64,000 bases of DNA from Dehalococcoidia bacterium. Its GTDB lineage: Bacteria; Chloroflexota; Dehalococcoidia; Plut-88900. The notes below the pieces were generated by a model. The model was not told where the DNA came from. It ran no database searches and was given only the letters and a program-made list of their open reading frames with translations. Below, piece after piece: positions 1,739 through 53,567 of this stretch. The stretch is from assembly GCA_965207225.1 (NCBI GenBank), contig CBDBLV010000004.1, forward strand, positions 544,001 through 608,000. Direction: 5' to 3'. Position 1 is the first letter of the stretch. Each line of letters starts with the position of its first letter. A program made the position numbers and the translations under genes.

Positions 1739-1939
1739 ATGTACATCACCCGAGGCGCTATTGCACTCCTGGTCTTTTTCCTGACCTCGATTATCTGTGG
1801 CATCGTAGGGACCATCGGCGTGCTGGTGGTACTCTACGGCGACCTCTGGTGGGGCATAGGCTATCTGGTCGGGACACTCTTGATCGCCGTGGTGGGCTCA
1901 TTCTGGGCCTACAGGATAAACAAGGGTCCCAGCCCCTGA
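1739..1939 (+). CDS. small two-TM membrane protein, hypothetical
   Basis: 66 aa with two hydrophobic stretches; fills the intergenic gap. Confidence 0.55.
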   Translation: MYITRGAIALLVFFLTSIICGIVGTIGVLVVLYGDLWWGIGYLVGTLLIAVVGSFWAYRINKGPSP

Positions 1940-2040
1940 TTTCATTCAGGCCGCTAGGAAGACGTGCAATGGCCTTGCTACGTACGCCTATTGCGTTAAC
2001 ATTTAGGTAGAGGCCCCGGCCAACAGGAAGGAGCGAACCC

Positions 2041-2163
2041 ATGGCAAACATCGAATGCGCAGCCTGCAAACGGAAATTCGAGACCCAGCTTCTCCAGCTC
2101 AACAACAAGCTCTACTGCGTAGACTGTTTCAACGTCGTGAAGGCCAAGGAGCAGTCCCAATAG
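2041..2163 (+). CDS. 40-aa CxxC...CxxC zinc-finger microprotein (not in ORF track)
   Basis: MANIECAACKRKFETQLLQLNNKLYCVDCFNVVKAKEQSQ; AAGGAG RBS upstream; hairpin downstream. Confidence 0.65.
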   Translation: MANIECAACKRKFETQLLQLNNKLYCVDCFNVVKAKEQSQ

Positions 2164-2210
2164 CGCTCACATAACAGACTTCTGCTTTTCTGTAGGAGCA
2201 GGCTCTCCAT

Positions 2211-2250
2211 AGGCCGCCCGGGCTAAGGGCCGCGGGCGGCCTTCTCTTCT
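2211..2250 (+). terminator. probable intrinsic terminator
   Basis: AGGCCGCCCG...CGGGCGGCCT inverted repeat followed by a pyrimidine tract. Confidence 0.5.
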
Positions 2251-2289
2251 CCACGACTTCCTCCATTTCTGCCGCTCTCCGGCCACTTA

Positions 2290-2317
2290 TTGACAAATTT
2301 TGAACAAATCCTAAAAT
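2290..2317 (+). promoter_or_regulatory. sigma70-type promoter
   Basis: TTGACA-16 nt-TAAAAT upstream of the GHKL gene. Confidence 0.55.
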
Positions 2318-2363
2318 TGTCATAAGGTTTCGTATAGCTACCCGTTCCGAAAGGGGGTTTACA

Positions 2364-3848
2364 TTGGAAAAGATAGTAGATGTCGAACTCAACAAGGCCA
2401 ATGCCCTCATCACCCTCGGCTCCATGTACCGAAGTGCCGCCGACGCCATCAAGGAGTACGTCAGCAACGCCCTTGACGAATGGGCCATGGCCCGCTCCCG
2501 AGGCGCCGCCATCCAGCAGTGCCAGGTCACCTTCACCCTCGAAAAGAAGGCTATTACCATCGGCTACAATGCTCCAGGCATGGATGCCGACTCCTTCGAA
2601 ACTGCTCTGCGTCACGTCGTTGACTCCGCTAAGCGGGACTCCGCCGTACCCCAGATTGGACGTCTTGGAATCGGGCTCTGGGCTTTCAACCAGGTCGGTA
2701 CCCAAGCGACATTCCTCAGCAAACGCTCCCCAGACTCCCCCACCCTCAAGGTCATCCTCTCTCGGGAATCCGCAGAGGCCCGCTTCTTCACCCCCAACCC
2801 CTCCGAGGAGCGCTCTACGCCCGGCATGACCATCAAGATCACCGGTCTATTCCAGGACCCCACCCGACGCTATGGCCCTCTTTCCCAGGCCCGGCTCAAA
2901 CACGTCCTCGCTGACAGGTTTGACACGTATCTCAGGACGGACCAGTTGAAGATCAGCATCAAGTCAGGCAGCAGCGAGACCGAGGTCGTTCCCGTCCAAC
3001 TTGACCTCCCGGAGATCGGGGCCCGCTTCCAGAAATCTCACATCCCAAGCGATTCCGCGAAGACCTTCACCACCCGGTTCTGGTTTGATCCTTCCGGGCA
3101 AGGCCGCGTCTCCATGCGACATACGGGCGTCGTAGTAATCGAAGATATTCGCGAACTGTTCGACTTCGAGCTCTCCGGCAGCATCCTCATCAGCGGCCTT
3201 ATCAAGGGCTACGTCGACGCCGACTTCCTTTCCCCCCTCCCCGCCCGGAGCCAGTTTCTCGAAGACGACAACCTCGCCAAGCTCCTGGACGCCCTAAAGA
3301 CCACCGGCGAAGAGCTCGACTCCGAGATTACCGGCTTCCGCGACGAAGCCGAAAACGAGCGACTTCAGGCCCTCTTCCGCCGCGCAACCAAAGTCGCCCG
3401 GGAGATTTTGAGCCAGGATGAGTTCATGGACCTGGAGCTTATCGACGGATTGCGCCGAGTCAGCAGGGCCAACGGCGACGCCCAGGTCGCCAACGGCGCC
3501 AAGACCAACGGACATGAAGTCAACGGACACGAGACCAACGGACACCGACGGATTGGAGGGAACGGACACCACACCCGCCCCACCCGACGCCCCGTCATCC
3601 GCCGTTCAGACTTCGGAGGCGACGTTCGACACCGCAGCCGCCTCAACGACGGCGCCATCGAAATCAACATCAACAGCCCCGACTTCCTCGCCCTCTCCCG
3701 TGTCCCCCGCTCCCACCAGGTCGCCTACGTCGCCATGCTCCTCGGCAAGGAGATAATCGCCTACAACGACTCCAGCCGCGCCAGCGATGAGGCACTCGAA
3801 AAGATGGCCGCCTACGGCACCAGGGTCCTTTCCAACGTCCTGCGCTAG
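2364..3848 (+). CDS. GHKL (HSP90/MORC-like) ATPase domain protein
   Basis: N-box AIKEYVSNALD, G2 box IGRLGIG, PGMTIKI motif; TTG start; low-complexity NGH repeats. Confidence 0.75.
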   Translation: MEKIVDVELNKANALITLGSMYRSAADAIKEYVSNALDEWAMARSRGAAIQQCQVTFTLEKKAITIGYNAPGMDADSFETALRHVVDSAKRDSAVPQIGRLGIGLWAFNQVGTQATFLSKRSPDSPTLKVILSRESAEARFFTPNPSEERSTPGMTIKITGLFQDPTRRYGPLSQARLKHVLADRFDTYLRTDQLKISIKSGSSETEVVPVQLDLPEIGARFQKSHIPSDSAKTFTTRFWFDPSGQGRVSMRHTGVVVIEDIRELFDFELSGSILISGLIKGYVDADFLSPLPARSQFLEDDNLAKLLDALKTTGEELDSEITGFRDEAENERLQALFRRATKVAREILSQDEFMDLELIDGLRRVSRANGDAQVANGAKTNGHEVNGHETNGHRRIGGNGHHTRPTRRPVIRRSDFGGDVRHRSRLNDGAIEININSPDFLALSRVPRSHQVAYVAMLLGKEIIAYNDSSRASDEALEKMAAYGTRVLSNVLR

Positions 3849-3874
3849 CTGTTTTCTAGCGCTTTAAGACAATC

Positions 3875-3907
3875 AACAGGCCGGTCGGCAAGACCGACCG
3901 GCCTGTT
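3875..3907. terminator. hairpin/bidirectional terminator between convergent genes
   Basis: AACAGGCCGGTCGG-CAAGA-CCGACCGGCCTGTT, perfect 14-bp stem. Confidence 0.7.
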
Positions 3908-3936
3908 CCATTCGGGGTGCGGGAATCCGACCCTAG

Positions 3937-4365
3937 CTACTTCCCCTTAGTCTGCGAAAGGCTTGAGGCCCAGGACTCCACCTGTTCGAGCCGCGCCTGC
4001 ACCAGGTCATGGTCCAGCCCTCTGGCCACGTCCGCGTGTCCTGCCCTTACCAGCATCGGCACTATCCGGCGCCGCAGCTTGTCCAGGGCCCATGGTATCG
4101 GCGCCCCGTTGGTTGTGCAGTCCAGGAATAGTCGTTCGTCTTTGCCGTCTGGGCCGTAATGATAGTGTGGGGCGTCATCAAAGCAGTCGAACCTCAGTAG
4201 CTCCGTTTCTTTCCCCTCCAGGTCCGCATAGACATGAATAGCCACACCTTGGTCCCCACCGAAGTGCCGGTAGTCCAGCCCAAAGTTGATGTTCCCGGCG
4301 TCTATCTTCTCCATCTCTCCCACAACTATCTCGTGGTTCATGTGGTCGTGAGCTTCTTCTGCCAT
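3937..4365 (-). CDS. hypothetical protein
   Basis: 142-aa ORF with GGAGAAGG RBS and protein-like composition (LLRFDCF, PHYHY). Confidence 0.7.
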   Translation of the reverse strand: MAEEAHDHMNHEIVVGEMEKIDAGNINFGLDYRHFGGDQGVAIHVYADLEGKETELLRFDCFDDAPHYHYGPDGKDERLFLDCTTNGAPIPWALDKLRRRIVPMLVRAGHADVARGLDHDLVQARLEQVESWASSLSQTKGK

Positions 4366-4452
4366 TTGTCCTTCCTCCCAAGTCTTGTTACTGCCCGATA
4401 TCTGTAACCCGAATAATCCACAAACCCCTTTTCCCAGTCAAGCACCCGACCC

Positions 4453-5427
4453 CTAGTACCCCTTCCGCTTGTCGATCACCCCCGTCAACTGTCTCCCGTC
4501 CAGGTACCGCCTGAGATTGTCGCAAAACACGTCCACTATCCGAGCCACCCTAACCGGAGACCCGCCAGCCGTGTGCGGTGTCACCACCACGTTCTCCATA
4601 TTCCACAGTGGATGGTCATCCTCCAGAGGCTCTCCCGGCGATGTATCCAGCCCCGCCCCACCGATCTCCCCAGATTTCAACGCCTCCAAAAGCGCCGGCC
4701 CGTCGACAATATCCCCACGGGTCACGTTTATCAGCAGCGCATGCTCCCGCATGTGCCTGAAAGCCTTCGCATCGAAAATACCCCTCGTGTCATCCGTAAG
4801 CGGCAGGCAGATCACCACTACGTCCGACTCCTCCAGCAAGTCGTAGAATCTATCGGGCGCCCACACCTCCTCCACGAAGGGCGGTTTTTTCACGTCCTCG
4901 GTGTCCAGCGCCAGCGTCCGCATCCCGAACCCTTGCGCCCGACGCGCCACCTCCACCCCCGTCCCCCCCAGCCCAAACACCCCCAATGTCATCCCCGCTA
5001 ATTCCCACGACCTCGCCCTTATCGGCATCCGCACCCGCCAGTTCTTCTCTCTTAAGGCCGTGTGAATCCCCCGGGTCAAGGCCAGAAGCAGTGCCCACGC
5101 GTGGTCGGCTAAATGAGTTCCGACCGTTCCTTTCGCACTTGTCAGTATCACGTCACTCTCCACGAATTCATCGAACAGCACCCCGTCAATCCCCGACCCT
5201 ATCGACTGCACCCACTTCAACTTCCCAGCCGCGTCAAACATCTCCCGGGAGAAGTCCCCGAATACCACTTCCGTGTCCCTCATCGCAGCCTGGGTCTCCT
5301 CCACCGACTGTGGCACCACAATGTCCACTTCCTCCGAAATCGCCTGGATCTTGTTGAGGTATTCCTGCGTGAATCCTTCCGTGACGACAACATTCTCCTC
5401 TAGACGCACATTGATCATTAGCTTCAT
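4453..5427 (-). CDS. D-2-hydroxyacid dehydrogenase
   Basis: GLGGTG, LINVTRG, LDTSPGEPL, VTPHTAG motifs. Confidence 0.9.
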   Translation of the reverse strand: MKLMINVRLEENVVVTEGFTQEYLNKIQAISEEVDIVVPQSVEETQAAMRDTEVVFGDFSREMFDAAGKLKWVQSIGSGIDGVLFDEFVESDVILTSAKGTVGTHLADHAWALLLALTRGIHTALREKNWRVRMPIRARSWELAGMTLGVFGLGGTGVEVARRAQGFGMRTLALDTEDVKKPPFVEEVWAPDRFYDLLEESDVVVICLPLTDDTRGIFDAKAFRHMREHALLINVTRGDIVDGPALLEALKSGEIGGAGLDTSPGEPLEDDHPLWNMENVVVTPHTAGGSPVRVARIVDVFCDNLRRYLDGRQLTGVIDKRKGY

Positions 5428-5466
5428 AGTCGTTCCTCAGTCAAGAGCTACCGACCGCCCGACACC

Positions 5467-6648
5467 CTAGAAGAGCGCTGCCAGTTTGGATATCCCCTCC
5501 CGTATCGTCTCCTCGTCTTGGTGGGCAAAAGCCAGCCTCAAGTAATTATTCCCTTTTCCTGACGGCGAGAAAATCGGCCCCGCCCCGAACCGAATCCCCT
5601 GCTCCTTCGCCTTTTCCAGCACGGGCATCACGTCGGTCCCTTTCGGGAACCGCAGCCACAGGAACATCCCACCTGGGGGATTGGAGCACTCCACCCCTGG
5701 CCCGAAACTTTCTCTTATCGCCGCCAGCATCACATCCTTTCGGGACTTGTAAAGCTCGATCACTTCAGAAACGTGCTGGTCTCGGTGTTTTTTCAGGTAG
5801 TTGTACGCCGCCAGTATCGAAAACTGGCTCGGCGTTGCTCCCTGCTGCAGCATACCTACCCTCTCAGTAATCTCCGGCGGCGCCACTATCCAACCCAGCC
5901 GCATCCCCGGCCCGATTATCTTCGAAGACGACCCGCAGTACATCACCGAACCCGTATCGTCCATCGAGTGTATTGCCGGCTTCATTTCCCCCTCGAACCT
6001 GAGGTCAGCGTAACAGTCGTCCTCGAATATCGGGGTCCCGTACTTCCTCCCGACCGCAAGTATCGCAGCGCGCCTCTCCGTGCCTACATCCAGCCCGGTC
6101 GGATTCTGGAACGTGGGTACCGTGTAGATGTACTTGACCCGTTCGCCTGCTGCCTTCAGTTCAAGAATCTTCTCTTCCAGTTTGTCCGGGCGCATCGCTT
6201 CGTCGTCGCCCTCCACCTCCACTATGTTTGCCTGGAACCGACGCATCACCCTGATCGTCCCGTTGTATATGAACTCGTCTGTCAGCACCGTGTCCCCGGG
6301 GTCGACGAACAGCTCAGTCAGCAATACCAGGGCCTGCATCGATCCCGCCGTGAGCGTCACGTCGTCTCCCGAGACCCTCATCCCCCTGTTTCGCCCCAAA
6401 TTATCCGCCACTAACTCCCGCATCCCCGGATGTCCCTGTGGGTGTGGGTATACCGCCAGCTTCTCGCCCTCCTCCTCCACCCCCGACTGCAATGCCTCAA
6501 CCAGGTGGTCCCCTGGAAACGTCTCCCCGTCTGCAAACGCTATCGCAAAATCATAAGGAAATTGCTGTGCTAGTGGGTTCACGGCGTCCGGCTTAGGTGG
6601 CGTGGTGGAAGCAAATAAGGCCTCATAATCAAGCTGGGAAGCGGTCAT
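5467..6648 (-). CDS. PLP-dependent aminotransferase class I/II (2-aminoadipate transaminase-like)
   Basis: PTFQNPTG, EDDCY, SSSKIIGPGMRLGW; start moved to ATG 6648 behind AAGGAG. Confidence 0.88.
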   Translation of the reverse strand: MTASQLDYEALFASTTPPKPDAVNPLAQQFPYDFAIAFADGETFPGDHLVEALQSGVEEEGEKLAVYPHPQGHPGMRELVADNLGRNRGMRVSGDDVTLTAGSMQALVLLTELFVDPGDTVLTDEFIYNGTIRVMRRFQANIVEVEGDDEAMRPDKLEEKILELKAAGERVKYIYTVPTFQNPTGLDVGTERRAAILAVGRKYGTPIFEDDCYADLRFEGEMKPAIHSMDDTGSVMYCGSSSKIIGPGMRLGWIVAPPEITERVGMLQQGATPSQFSILAAYNYLKKHRDQHVSEVIELYKSRKDVMLAAIRESFGPGVECSNPPGGMFLWLRFPKGTDVMPVLEKAKEQGIRFGAGPIFSPSGKGNNYLRLAFAHQDEETIREGISKLAALF

Positions 6649-44877: not shown

Positions 44878-44901
44878 TTCCCCCATCCCCGTCTCCCCAT
44901 C

Positions 44902-45105
44902 CCGTCATCCCCGCCACAGAGAGTCGGAATCCATCCCCGGGCGGTGAGGCCGCTCATGCTGAGAGGCCCTCTTAAGCATGCCCCGAGTCCCTCGAGGGGT
45001 ATGAGCGGGGGGGAGGCTCGCGTACAGTCCACCCGTCGCGCCCTTCCACATCCACTCCCCTCTCTGTCATCCCGAGGCCCCGCGAGGGATCTAGGACTTG
45101 CCCAC
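44902..45105 (+). repeat. ordered REP-like cluster R3-R1-R2
   Basis: GTCATCCCCG..GGAATCCA (44902), CCGCTCATGCTGAG..TATGAGCGG (44950), GTCATCCCGAGGCCCCGCGAGGGATCT (45064). Confidence 0.75.
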
Positions 45106-45159
45106 CTACATCTTTCCATGTCATACCTTCCCTTCTCCCCCGACCCCACCTCCCACCTA

Positions 45160-45194
45160 TTGATTTTGTAAATGTATGTGCTATACTTATGTTC
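45160..45194 (+). promoter_or_regulatory. sigma70 promoter with extended -10
   Basis: TTGATT-16 nt-TATACT with a TGn extension, in an AT-rich island. Confidence 0.6.
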
Positions 45195-45379
45195 GTGGCA
45201 CCGGCCTCGTTACCCGGGCCACCAAACCAGGAAAGGACTAAAGGAGTCCCATGAGCCGCATAGGCCTCACATGGCCCCGTCGCACCCGGTCGGTATGGGA
45301 CCGACCCTCTGCCGACACGCACCTCCTCCCCACTACCTTTCCGCCTACCGTGTCCCTCAGCCCTTCACCCTTCCCCCGT

Positions 45380-45808
45380 GGAAGTTCAAAGCCCAGCGCC
45401 CCCTCTCGACCACTGTCGTCCGGCGTCACTAAGGAGCCGCAACTTACCTTGCTGCCCCACCCGGACGTGGATGCCCGCGGTTTTCCGCGGAAGGACCCCA
45501 CCTGCGCCCATAGCGGCGTACGGATGGATGCCTGCTTTCACTCGCTGCAGATGTTCCCACGGCTAACCCCCGCGAGTGCCCCCCTCCGCCGTGGATGCCT
45601 GCCCAGGCTCGCCGCAGATGTATTTCCCACAGCTAACCCTTTGCGAGCTTTCCCCTCCGCTGTGGATGCCCGCGCCTTTGCGCGGAGGTACGCCCGCAAC
45701 GCCCTACCCGGCCTTGCGAAGATTGCCCGGGCCAACGCCCAGGCGATTGCCCACGTTCCAACCCCCGACGCCCCGGCTTACGCCGCAGAGGGGGCGCTGG
45801 CAACTTCC
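45380..45808 (+). ncRNA. candidate structured ncRNA domain (cassette 1)
   Basis: closing helices 45380-86/45802-08 and 45393-406/45787-800; tandem modules with covarying pairs. Confidence 0.5.
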
Positions 45809-45853
45809 TCATTTAGTTCCTCTTCCTCCTACGCCATCCCCTCCCTTATTCCT

Positions 45854-45970
45854 AGTACTGAACTAGAGGCAAGCGCCTGCGCCATGGCGCAGGCGCTTGC
45901 CTCTGTTTTTTCCTCCCCCTCTCCCTTGAAGGCCCTAAGGGAGAGGGGGATCAAGGGGGTAAGGGTTCCC
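45854..45970 (+). repeat. element E copy A
   Basis: AGTACTGAACT + perfect 40-bp palindrome 45865-45904 + CCCCCTCTCCC/GGGAGAGGGGG hairpin; homologous to 53789-53905 and 54905-55044. Confidence 0.85.
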
Positions 45971-46175
45971 CTCCCCGCCCCTTAAACAATCAAACCCATG
46001 CCTGAAACCCCAATTCAATCAAAACCTCCCTAGAATCCGGGAGTCCCTTCCCCCACAATTGAATGCCCCGGCCACCGTCCGACCCCCGGCCGCTTGACCT
46101 GAACGCCCATAGGCGTAACAATGGCGCCCACAGGCCGGTCTTTACCCAATCGACTAGACGCAGGGGGTGAACGGG

Positions 46176-53372: not shown

Positions 53373-53451
53373 AACAGCAACCCTAAGATGCCGGTTTCCT
53401 GAGGAACGTTCGGAAAGGAGGGCAAGAAGCAGACTCAAAGAAAAAAGGCAC

Positions 53452-53567
53452 CCGGCGGCGACCTATTTTCCGCGGAGAGTTGCCCCTCTAGTATCGTCGG
53501 CGCAGAGGTGTTTCACTTCCGTGTTCGGAATGAGAACGGGTGGGCCCACCTCGCTATAGCCACCGCA
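53452..53567 (-). rRNA. rrf: 5S rRNA (stand-alone)
   Basis: GCGGUGGCUAUAGCG...CACCCGUUCUCAUUCCGAACACGGAAGUGAA...AAUAGGUCGCCGCC, canonical 5S motifs. Confidence 0.95.

What the first reader, a model, noticed from the sequence alone, without database searches (positions are those of the whole stretch)
45380..45808. Closed RNA domain with tandem pseudoknot modules showing compensatory changes
Seen: CCAGCGCCCCCTCT (45393) pairs perfectly with AGAGGGGGCGCTGG (45787), GGAAGTT pairs with AACTTCC, and CGGCGT..AGCCG pairs with CGGCT.ACGCCG. TGGATGCC recurs at 45468, 45525, 45592 and 45663. The two middle units (67 and 71 nt) each form a CUGC/GCAG stem whose loop can pair with sequence after GCUAACCC: CACUCGC/GCGAGUG in unit 1 and GGCUCGC/GCGAGCU in unit 2, i.e. 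two positions changed with pairing kept. The outer units carry CCGCGG/CCGCGG and CCGCGC/GCGCGG hairpins, also covarying. Inference: repeated H-type pseudoknot or alternative-fold modules, possibly aptamers, protein-binding sites or ribozymes.
Basis: partly seen in the sequence, partly recalled or inferred. Interest (0 to 1): 0.75.

Follow-up and report, generated by a model that had tools for sequence, protein, structure and literature searches.

The report
Structured RNA domain inside odd ORF
The flagged stretch is a real, conserved array of RNA hairpins closed by a long stem, and it belongs to a multi-copy element, found only in one genus of sponge-associated Dehalococcoidia, that keeps a reading frame open without behaving like a normal protein gene.

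Summary
The 14-bp closing stem, the four TGGATGCC copies, the hairpins and the loop-to-downstream complementarities are at the stated coordinates. The closing stem and the hairpins show compensatory changes in 24 homologous domains from 9 genomes of one genus.

TGGATGCC is a helix junction: GG ends one hairpin (Hx), AT is the junction, GCC starts the next (Ha). The "pseudoknots" are loop-loop contacts between neighbouring hairpins. They are conserved, but rest on only one compensatory difference.

Context changes the reading:
- The domain sits in a unit of about 0.6 kb with its own promoter, a Shine-Dalgarno site and an ATG.
- A 27-codon Arg-rich peptide at the start shows coding-like variation.
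- The frame stays open through the domain, and 23 of 24 domain lengths are multiples of 3.
- Substitutions show no codon periodicity, and AlphaFold2 finds no fold.
- The element is one of 17 loci in this genome (subfamilies A, B, C) that share the 5' module. Subfamily B carries an in-frame fragment of a terminase large-subunit gene.
- No Rfam or Pfam family matches.

Best reading: a new lineage-specific structured RNA that is also translated. Its function is unknown; a multivalent binding platform is my inference.

The parts
45160..45187 (+). Promoter-like site: TTGATT, 16 nt, TATACT, with TG before the -10 hexamer
   Evidence: The TGCTATACT-type -10 is conserved in all 17 loci of the family in this genome.
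45197..45220 (+). 5' terminal hairpin of the shared 5' module
   Evidence: columns 17-21 pair with 29-33, with double changes (C-G 14 / T-A 2; C-G 10 / G-C 4).
45230..45250 (+). Purine run with a Shine-Dalgarno-like AAGGAG (45241-45246), 4 nt before the ATG
   Evidence: GGAGTCCCATGAG is invariant in the 16 aligned copies.
45251..45331 (+). Start codon and conserved 27-codon Arg-rich peptide (MSR..., with Arg invariant at codons 3, 13 and 18)
   Evidence: 37 copies with no indel. Codon 13 is CGG, CGA, CGT or AGG, all Arg. Mean entropy by codon position is 0.54 / 0.56 / 0.74.
45251..45985 (+). Open frame of 244 codons. It runs through the whole structured domain and through the terminator hairpin.
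   Evidence: No Pfam family. AlphaFold2 mean pLDDT 50.8. No codon periodicity of substitutions.
45393..45406 (+). P1, 5' strand of the 14-bp closing stem
   Evidence: Compensated C-G to T-A change in the 9 A2 copies.
45787..45800 (+). P1, 3' strand. Family-wide similarity stops about here, although some copies share a further 3' module after variable palindrome insertions.
45461..45470 (+). P3, 5' strand (CCGGACGTGG). Its GTGG is the first 'TGG' of the repeated motif.
   Evidence: 78.9% of cells paired, no compensatory change. Inferred, not proven.
45751..45761 (+). P3, 3' strand (CCACGTTCCAA; CCACG(T/C)TCCGG in most homologs)
45475..45490 (+). Ha0 hairpin, CCGCGG / CCGCGG
   Evidence: fifth pair is G-C in 8 rows and C-G in 5.
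45498..45527 (+). Hx0 hairpin. In G007b-d a different hairpin takes its place; in G001 the stem is CGGAC / GTCCG.
45532..45550 (+). Ha1 hairpin, CTGC / GCAG, with an 11-nt loop that carries CACTCGC
   Evidence: T-A to C-G in one row, C-G to T-G in three.
45557..45594 (+). Hx1 hairpin, CCACGGC / GCCGTGG. Its loop carries GCGAGTG (45572-45578), which is complementary to the Ha1 loop (45539-45545).
45599..45617 (+). Ha2 hairpin, CTGC / GCAG, with a loop that carries GGCTCGC. An alternative GCCT / AGGC hairpin is possible.
45627..45665 (+). Hx2 hairpin, CCACAGC / GCTGTGG. Its loop carries GCGAGCT (45643-45649), which is complementary to the Ha2 loop (45606-45612).
   Evidence: intact in all 15 A1 copies. 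Also.
45670..45685 (+). Ha3 hairpin, CCGCGC / GCGCGG
45695..45718 (+). Hx3 hairpin, CGCAA / TTGCG around GCC / GGC. The register differs in homologs (CCGCT / AGCGG).
   Evidence: 78.1% of cells paired.
45722..45747 (+). Ha4 hairpin, ATTGCC / GGCGAT, around a degenerate fifth 'GATTGCC' unit
   Evidence: helix 16: 3 pairs with changes on both sides.
45864..45911 (+). Terminator-like hairpin of 19 pairs plus a T run. It is a multi-copy palindrome, not specific to this element.
   Evidence: Among the aligned A copies it is present after G000a and G008a, and a related palindrome follows G007a.

Best explanation
The region is the 3' two-thirds of a transcription unit of about 0.6 kb. That unit is one of a genus-restricted, multi-copy family: 17 loci in this genome, in subfamilies A, B and C.

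Each member has two parts:
- A shared 5' module: a sigma-70-like promoter, a 5' hairpin, a Shine-Dalgarno site, an ATG and a 27-codon Arg-rich peptide.
- A C-rich body. In subfamilies A and C the body is closed by a long stem.

In this copy the body folds on the + strand. A 14-bp stem (P1), and probably a second stem (P3), enclose nine hairpins of two alternating kinds, Ha and Hx. The repeated TGGATGCC is the Hx-end / junction / Ha-start. Two Ha loops can pair with the loops of the following Hx hairpins.

Shown here:
- The structure exists and is conserved.
- The element is under nucleotide-level constraint.
- The frame that starts at the conserved ATG is kept open, while the encoded sequence is not conserved as protein.

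Inferred:
- The RNA, not the polypeptide, is the functional product.
- The hairpin array is a multivalent binding platform for an unknown partner. Unit number varies the way it does in sponge RNAs.
- Translation from the strong start is retained mainly to shield a C-rich, G-poor transcript from Rho and from decay.

The family descends from a fusion of the 5' module to a terminase large-subunit gene fragment. That fragment is still visible in subfamily B.
For: Structure:
- Folding z-score is -5.49 for the + strand, with 0 of 100 shuffles as good.
- On 16 aligned copies my model has 89.4% of cells paired, against 34-44% when partners are slid. There are 27 cells changed on both sides; 0 of 500 shuffles reach that.
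- Hx helices, with the 5' strand anchored by motif rather than by complement search: 84 of 87 units form at least 4 of 5 pairs. The mean is 4.45 against 3.59 +/- 0.16 with shuffled partners; the maximum over 1000 shuffles is 4.15.
- Hx pair classes include CCACGGC/GCCGTGG, CCACAGC/GCTGTGG, CCGCT/AGCGG, CCGTC/GACGG and CGGAC/GTCCG.
- G-T cells outnumber A-C cells 73 to 35, which favours the + strand.
- Loop-loop motifs co-occur: of 88 units, 39 have both, 43 have neither and 6 have only one.

Constraint:
- At the syntenic locus in G007, the element is 84.9% identical (closed domain 86.5%). Third codon positions of the two flanking genes are 68.7% and 77.1% identical.

Frame kept open:
- The ATG frame is open to the end of the element in 15 of 16 copies.
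- 23 of 24 closed-domain lengths are multiples of 3, across 8 distinct lengths, and one domain-relative frame is stop-free in 23 of 24.
- In B and C copies, frame 0 is stop-free for about 800-2370 nt in 12 of the 13 copies for which a start was found. The other frames hold many stops.

Not protein-like:
- The variable fraction by codon position is 0.435 / 0.443 / 0.421.
- Summed B and C pair substitutions are 251 / 270 / 299.
- One invariant block is read in two different frames in G000 and G001.
- Third-position A+T is 30-36%, against 11-19% in neighbouring genes.
- AlphaFold2 gives pLDDT 50.8 and pTM 0.12. There is no Pfam or PHROG family.

Promoter, terminator and factors:
- A promoter-like site and a terminator-like hairpin are found.
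- A Rho gene is present.
- Metatranscriptome contigs from two sponge studies cover 45263-45678 and 45512-45759.

Family architecture:
- 6 of 7 C copies have a 13-16-bp closing stem. The C closed domain folds with z = -8.08.

Origin:
- Residues 33-212 of the B1 ORF align with residues 238-417 of this genome's own terminase-like protein.
- B1 is 71% identical to that gene at the DNA level over 526 nt.
- A 499-aa relative carries Terminase_6C.
Against: - No binding partner is known. CsrA and Hfq were not found, although the genome is only 92% complete.
- Most helices are invariant across the close relatives, so they say nothing either way. RNAalifold's covariation term is only -1.67.
- P3 and the loop-loop contacts lack compensatory changes within orthologs.
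- The - strand also folds well, with z = -4.49.
- The open frame, the multiple-of-3 unit lengths (57, 60, 69, 72, 126) and the coding-like N-terminal peptide fit a translated product just as well.
- Two A2 copies (L051, L052) have the ATG frame closed.
- Transcription is only hinted at. The evidence is contigs from RNA libraries, which may hold DNA, with no strand or ends.
- The Rho-shield idea is untested.
Confidence: 0.5

Rival explanations
1. It is a protein-coding gene. A conserved Arg-rich N-terminal peptide is followed by a fast-evolving, disordered repeat region of 19-24 residues per unit. The product could be a secreted or effector-like protein, or a multi-core peptide precursor. The hairpins would then be a by-product of palindromic repeat DNA.
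For: - A conserved Shine-Dalgarno site and ATG.
- Coding-like variation in codons 1-27.
- The frame is open in 15 of 16 copies.
- Unit and domain lengths are multiples of 3.
- In G001 all units are read in one frame as a V-D-A-C/R-type repeat.
- B and C frames are stop-free for about 1 kb or more.
- Subfamily B descends from a real protein gene, in frame.
Against: - There is no codon periodicity of substitutions, either between orthologs (0.825 / 0.88 / 0.842) or across the family.
- Long blocks are invariant at all three codon positions.
- The same block is read in two frames in different species.
- Coordinated double changes keep the hairpins while changing two or three residues.
- Positional composition is unlike the neighbouring genes.
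- AlphaFold2 finds no fold. The Atlas recognition score is in the range of shuffled proteins.
- No shared neighbouring gene (such as a maturase) was seen next to the 17 loci in ORF listings; most neighbours were named from their first residues only, by my recall.
Confidence: 0.17
2. It is a decaying, selfish repeat family. It would be a terminase-gene fragment with a portable promoter module that has been copied around the genome. The hairpin arrays would be expansions of REP-like DNA palindromes with no RNA function.
For: - There are 17 loci per genome, restricted to one genus: 9 of 9 genus genomes, and 0 of 292 other genomes of the class.
- G008a lies at a different locus from G000a.
- Subfamily B is a truncated, diverged terminase fragment with an internal 162-nt duplication.
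- The intergenic regions of this genome are full of palindromic repeats, and these insert into the elements.
- The P1 arms resemble half of a common palindrome. This is my reading and was not tested.
Against: - The orthologous copy is conserved well above third-codon-position identity.
- Variation concentrates in loops and linkers while the helices covary.
- Frame and length modulo 3 are maintained.
- G-T pairs exceed A-C pairs by 73 to 35, which points to RNA rather than duplex DNA.
Confidence: 0.15
3. It is a cis-acting leader for the downstream gene: tandem aptamers, or a translation- or Rho-dependent attenuator.
For: - By my rough reading of ORF tables, about 12-13 of the 17 loci have a co-oriented gene downstream.
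- Four A copies sit upstream of the same CoA-transferase-like gene.
- The transcript is C-rich and a Rho gene is present.
Against: - This copy and G008a end in a strong terminator-like hairpin, and a second promoter-like site precedes the amidohydrolase gene.
- The downstream genes are unrelated to one another.
- Unit number varies.
- No riboswitch family matches.
Confidence: 0.06
4. The closed domain is a rolling-circle or circular template. P1 brings its ends together, its length is a multiple of 3 and one frame has no stop. Circularisation, or repeated copying by a reverse transcriptase, would then give an endless ORF.
For: - 23 of 24 domain lengths are multiples of 3, and the same domain-relative frame is stop-free in 23 of 24. 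That includes the two copies whose ATG frame is closed.
- P1 is a perfect 14-bp stem at the exact domain ends.
- Four reverse-transcriptase genes are in the genome.
Against: - No reverse transcriptase is adjacent to this locus; the matches lie on contigs C2 and C5, this locus on C4.
- No read-level junction evidence was obtained. Only contigs could be laid.
- The same numbers follow from an ordinary linear ORF.
Confidence: 0.05

Closest known systems
CsrB/RsmZ-type protein-sponge RNAs
   Same: - A tandem array of short hairpins with a recurring GGA-containing motif. GGA occurs 15 times against 6.5 expected, and GGATG 5 times against 0.3.
- Unit number varies between homologs.
- It has its own promoter and terminator.
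   Different: - No CsrA gene was found and no Rfam match.
- The GGA lies at a helix junction, not in hairpin loops.
- The array is closed by a 14-bp stem.
- It lies inside an open frame.
tmRNA
   Same: The ends are paired in a closing stem, there are several pseudoknot-like modules in tandem, and a translated frame lies within a structured RNA.
   Different: - ARAGORN finds no tmRNA or tRNA-like domain, and Rfam gives no match.
- The genome has a canonical tmRNA elsewhere.
- This element is multi-copy, and the frame starts at a Shine-Dalgarno site and an ATG.
Dual-function RNAs such as Staphylococcus RNAIII (recalled, not tested)
   Same: A small ORF in the 5' part of a long, many-hairpin, C-rich RNA that is transcribed from its own promoter.
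   Different: Here the frame does not stop after the small peptide. It runs through the whole structured body. There is no sequence or family relation.
Large ornate bacterial RNAs in Rfam (OLE, ROOL, GOLLD, HEARO, raiA)
   Same: A size of several hundred nucleotides, many conserved helices, a narrow lineage and unknown biochemistry.
   Different: - None of the 4227 Rfam models matches this copy or 10 other family loci.
- Those RNAs are not translated and are not derived from a terminase gene.
Terminase large subunit (Terminase_6C nuclease domain)
   Same: The sister subfamily B carries, in frame behind the same 5' module, a fragment that aligns to residues 238-417 of the genome's own terminase-like protein.
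   Different: The A copy in the window has no detectable similarity to the terminase gene. The B fragment is truncated and evolves without codon periodicity.

Membership tests
tmRNA (RF00023) | A tRNA-like domain formed by the 5' and 3' ends, and a match to the family model | tested here: not met
   ARAGORN finds 0 genes in 45000-46100. No Rfam hit at the gathering score or at E<=10 inside 45190-45780. A canonical tmRNA lies at C1:198772-199125.
CsrB/Rsm sponge RNAs | A cognate CsrA/RsmA protein in the genome | tested here: not met
   PF02599 gives 0 matches in the own genome, which is 92.3% complete. Controls ring in 3 genomes.
CsrB/Rsm sponge RNAs | Many GGA motifs exposed in hairpin loops or linkers | tested here: inconclusive
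   GGA is enriched, 15 against 6.5. In my model it sits at the Hx/Ha junction. Its accessibility is unknown.
   The core CTCGC/GCGAG is invariant and the two motifs co-occur: 39 units have both and 43 have neither, of 88. There is only one compensated position, and it is between paralogous units. The outer pair holds in 4 of 16 rows. The downstream strand lies in the loop of hairpin Hx.
Riboswitch, aptamer or ribozyme families of Rfam | A match to a curated covariance model | tested here: not met
   no match in this copy or in 10 other loci of the family.
Ordinary protein-coding gene | An open frame behind a ribosome-binding site | tested here: met
Ordinary protein-coding gene | An excess of third-position substitutions, and positional base composition like other genes of the genome | tested here: not met
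   Identity by codon position is 0.825 / 0.88 / 0.842, against 0.97 / 0.99 / 0.77 in the flanking gene. The exception is codons 1-27.
Ordinary protein-coding gene | A known domain or a predicted fold | tested here: not met
   Pfam gives none. AlphaFold2 gives pLDDT 50.8 and no secondary structure. The Atlas gives no hit at 0.9 or above.
Reverse-transcriptase-templated endless-ORF systems (recalled from the literature, not read here) | A reverse-transcriptase gene next to the structured RNA | tested here: not met
   The RVT_1 matches lie at C2:158 kb and at C5:1548, 1553 and 1671 kb. None is near C4:589 kb.
MITE- or REP-type repeats | Terminal inverted repeats at both ends of the repeated unit | tested here: not met
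   The 5' arm of the 14-bp repeat is internal. About 240 nt of conserved promoter and 5' module lie upstream of it.

The most novel reading that the evidence does not exclude
The closed domain is built to be read round and round. A 14-bp stem joins its ends, its length is a multiple of 3 in 23 of 24 homologs, and one frame has no stop in 23 of 24. A circular RNA, or a concatemeric copy made by one of the genome's reverse transcriptases, would therefore carry an endless ORF seeded by the ATG in each GGATGCC junction.
Probability: 0.05. Interest if true: 0.9.

Novelty: new variant of a known kind. Interest (0 to 1): 0.6.

Why it matters
If the RNA is the functional product, this is a new family of large structured bacterial RNAs from an uncultured sponge-symbiont lineage. 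Three features set it apart:
- It is multi-copy, with interchangeable bodies behind one shared promoter and translation-start module.
- It keeps a reading frame open without selecting the protein sequence.
- It can be traced to a phage terminase gene fragment.

That would be a documented case of a coding sequence being turned into a structured RNA. It would also offer a test bed for the idea that translation is kept only to protect a C-rich transcript. If the element turns out to be a repeat family or a disordered protein instead, it still explains a class of "hypothetical proteins" that gene callers predict in these genomes (48 unnamed database entries).

Tried and rejected
Searches that found nothing or did not help:
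- Rfam at gathering score and at E<=10. The only matches near the region are chance microRNA-type hits on the palindromes at 45781-45997.
- A metagenome scan with a 16-nt pattern of the closing stem. It returned 120 stretches, and none had the partner strand or the repeat units.
- One literature search (Chloroflexi, sponge, structured RNA, noncoding). I saw only the listing and abstract starts. Nothing relevant appeared and no paper was read, so I make no claim that the element is absent from print beyond this one search.

Ideas considered and dropped:
- The CsrA-sponge idea: no CsrA gene.
- tmRNA: rejected.
- My first impression that homology ends sharply at P1 is only partly right. Many copies share a further 3' module after variable palindrome insertions.
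- My recalled impression that subfamily B looks terminase-like got no Pfam or PHROG support directly. It was then confirmed through the representative search and alignments.
- A terminase origin for the A body itself was not detectable. For subfamily C it rests on an 85-nt match at E = 0.003.

Limits of the evidence:
- RNA runs X1 and X2 hold only small shares as contigs. They show no strand, ends or level.
- MAFFT misaligned helix Hx2 by one column, which lowers the paired percentage. The unit table shows it intact in all 15 A1 copies.
- Supplementary files of papers were not consulted.
Full report
**What is in the sequence**

- The 14-nt arms 45393-45406 and 45787-45800 are perfectly complementary.
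- TGGATGCC occurs four times within 200 nt on the + strand. The whole 64-kb window has seven matches on both strands, where 3.2 are expected.
- The + strand of 45393-45800 folds at -182 kcal/mol, z = -5.49, and no shuffle of 100 does as well. The - strand gives z = -4.49.
- No Rfam model matches the region at gathering score or at E<=10. The weak hits all lie on palindromes at 45781-45997.

**Surroundings**

The domain lies in a 1.28-kb gap between an upstream ORF that ends at 44886 (no Pfam family; an aminotransferase gene lies beyond it) and an amidohydrolase gene.
- A promoter-like site (TTGATT, 16 nt, TG-TATACT) sits at 45160-45187. A 19-pair terminator-like hairpin with a T run sits at 45864-45911.
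- Between them, an AAGGAG site 4 nt before an ATG (45251) opens a 244-codon frame. It crosses the whole domain and the terminator.
- The strand is C-rich, with GC skew of -0.17 to -0.32.

**A family, not a single locus**

- The own genome (a Dehalococcoidia MAG by the titles of close relatives; found in sponge metagenomes) holds three near-identical copies of the whole element.
- It holds 17 loci that share the promoter and the first ~170 nt.
- These fall into subfamily A (3 loci, including this one), B (7) and C (7).
- By BLASTN the 5' module is in 9 of 9 genomes of the genus. It is in none of 292 other genomes of the class, which span 191 other genera.
- None of 10 family loci matches Rfam.

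**Structure by comparison**

I collected 15 A1 domains (G000 x3, G008 x3, G007 x4, G005 x3, G001 x2). I also collected 9 A2 domains from G001, G002, G003, G004 and G006.

Closing stem:
- P1 is invariant in A1.
- It carries one compensated C-G to T-A change in G003a and in the 8 other A2 copies.

Inside the stem, the array is made of two alternating hairpins.
- Ha starts at the GCC of the motif. Its stems include CCGCGG/CCGCGG, CCGCGC/GCGCGG, CTGC/GCAG and CTGCGGC/GCCGCGG. One pair flips G-C (8 rows) to C-G (5 rows), and one goes T-A to C-G.
- Hx ends at the GG of the next motif.

Test of the Hx helices:
- I fixed the Hx 5' strand by a motif anchor rather than by searching for a complement.
- 84 of 87 units then form at least 4 of 5 pairs.
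- The 20 distinct strand pairs average 4.45 pairs, against 3.59 +/- 0.16 when partners are shuffled (maximum 4.15 in 1000).
- Pair classes include CCACGGC/GCCGTGG, CCACAGC/GCTGTGG, CCGCT/AGCGG, CCGTC/GACGG and CGGAC/GTCCG.

So TGGATGCC is a structural junction.

Whole model on the 16-row alignment:
- 89.4% of cells are paired, against 34-44% for slid partners.
- 27 cells have changes on both sides; 0 of 500 shuffles reach that.
- G-T cells outnumber A-C cells 73 to 35, which points to the + strand RNA.

Weaker parts of the model:
- P3 has no compensation.
- RNAalifold's covariation term is small, at -1.67, because most pairs never vary.

- The downstream partner of each loop lies in the loop of the next Hx hairpin, so the contact is loop-loop.
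- The CTCGC/GCGAG core is invariant.
- The two motifs co-occur. Of 88 units, 39 have both, 43 have neither and 6 have one only.
- The one compensated position (A-T in unit 1, G-C in unit 2) is between paralogs.
- The outer pair of unit 1 holds in 4 of 16 rows. A2 units pair over 5 bp with a mismatch beside them.
- The contact is plausible and conserved, but it is not demonstrated.

- GGAAGTT/AACTTCC pairs fully in 2 of 15 A1 copies.
- AGCCG/CGGCT changes on one side only.

**Coding or not**

For translation:
- The Shine-Dalgarno site and ATG are invariant.
- The first 27 codons have no indel in 37 copies and vary in a coding-like way. Codon 13 is always Arg through CGG, CGA, CGT or AGG. Entropy by codon position is 0.54 / 0.56 / 0.74.
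- The ATG frame is open to the element's end in 15 of 16 copies.
- Closed-domain lengths are multiples of 3 in 23 of 24, across 8 distinct lengths. One domain-relative frame is stop-free in 23 of 24.
- Unit lengths are 57, 60, 69, 72 and 126; the exceptions, 67 and 71, add up to 138.
- In 12 of the 13 B and C copies for which a start was found, frame 0 has no stop for about 800-2370 nt, while the other frames hold many.

Against a selected protein:
- The variable fraction by codon position is 0.435 / 0.443 / 0.421.
- Ten paralog pairs sum to 251 / 270 / 299 substitutions.
- One invariant nucleotide block is read in different frames in G000 and G001.
- Positional base composition is unlike real genes of the window.
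- There is no Pfam or PHROG family.
- The Atlas recognition score is in the shuffled range.
- AlphaFold2 with 19 sequences gives pLDDT 50.8, pTM 0.12 and no secondary structure.
- Only 48 unnamed metagenome proteins resemble the ORF among 5.8 billion.

**Constraint**

G007a is the positional ortholog of this copy, since both flanking genes match.
- Identity by codon position is 0.97 / 0.99 / 0.77 for the amidohydrolase gene.
- It is 0.965 / 0.986 / 0.687 for the aminotransferase gene.
- It is 0.825 / 0.88 / 0.842 for the element, and 0.865 overall for the closed domain.

The element therefore changes less than near-neutral sites and shows no coding pattern. This is selection at the nucleotide level.

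**Origin**

- A profile-free search of 1.84 billion representatives with the B1 ORF gave 513 hits. Many are ~500-aa proteins matched at about residues 235-400.
- One of these proteins carries Terminase_6C.
- B1 residues 33-212 align with residues 238-417 of this genome's own terminase-like protein.
- B1 is 71% identical to that gene at the DNA level over 526 nt, and it is in frame with the module's ATG.
- Subfamily C keeps a short, weak trace of the gene (E = 0.003).
- Subfamily A keeps none that I could detect.
- C copies also have a 13-16-bp closing stem right after the module (6 of 7 copies), and their closed domain folds with z = -8.08.

The family thus looks like a portable promoter and start module fused to a terminase fragment. 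The body of that fusion has since been replaced by closed, structured RNA domains.

**Mechanism (inference)**

- Variable unit number, conserved single-stranded junctions and enrichment of GGA and GGATG fit a multivalent binding platform. No partner is known; CsrA and Hfq were not found.
- A Rho gene is present and the transcript is C-rich and G-poor. A frame kept open from a strong start could protect the transcript, which would explain selection against stops without selection on residues.
- Expression is only hinted at by two metatranscriptome contigs.

**Verdict**

This is a real, conserved, structured RNA domain of a new, genus-restricted family that is also an open reading frame.

Noticed in passing
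window 45864-45905 and 45914-45950: Two palindromic repeat families follow the element. The first is a terminator-like hairpin, present in dozens of copies in the own genome and in every genome of the genus. The second (TCCCCCTCTCCCTT ... AAGGGAGAGGGGGA) reaches summed contig depths of 1917-5739 in two metagenome runs, against about 20 for the element.
   Followed up: partly
window 53450-53567 (-): A 5S rRNA gene (87.8 bits) with no 23S or 16S match anywhere in the 64-kb window. The 5S gene appears to be unlinked from the other rRNA genes.
   Followed up: no
G000:C1:233552-235072 and G000:C5:241272-242744: Two full-length terminase-large-subunit-like genes, 44-45% identical to a 499-aa relative that carries Terminase_6C. 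They are the likely source lineage of the fragment carried by subfamily B.
   Followed up: partly
L044 (G007d), alignment A1 columns 164-214: A 51-nt palindromic insertion sits between the 5' module and the closed domain. It keeps the reading frame.
   Followed up: no
L041, L043, L053, L054, L056, L057 (5' leaders): Some copies carry an extra hairpin (GTGGAACATCCGCC ... GGCGGAAC) between the purine run and the Shine-Dalgarno site. The same motif also occurs in some 3' flanks.
   Followed up: no
window 45985-46030; also the 3' flanks of L045 and L046: Short runs of a CAATCAA-type motif (for example TTCAATCAA) recur upstream of genes in this genus.
   Followed up: no
3' flanks of L003, L039, L042, L043, L047, L048, L050-L052, L056: A shared 3' module lies 40 to more than 200 nt after P1. 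It has an AGGAG-type purine box, then a C-rich stretch, then CACAACTGAATA. Variable palindrome insertions separate it from P1. The window copy lacks it.
   Followed up: partly
G000:C2:158087-158773; G000:C5:1548409-1549095, 1553608-1554405 and 1671488-1672288: Four reverse-transcriptase genes are in the genome, two of them identical 586-aa frames. None is next to a family locus that I examined.
   Followed up: no
L018, L020, L022 (subfamily B2): An internal tandem duplication of a 162-nt (54-codon) piece of the terminase-derived segment. Copy number varies between loci.
   Followed up: partly
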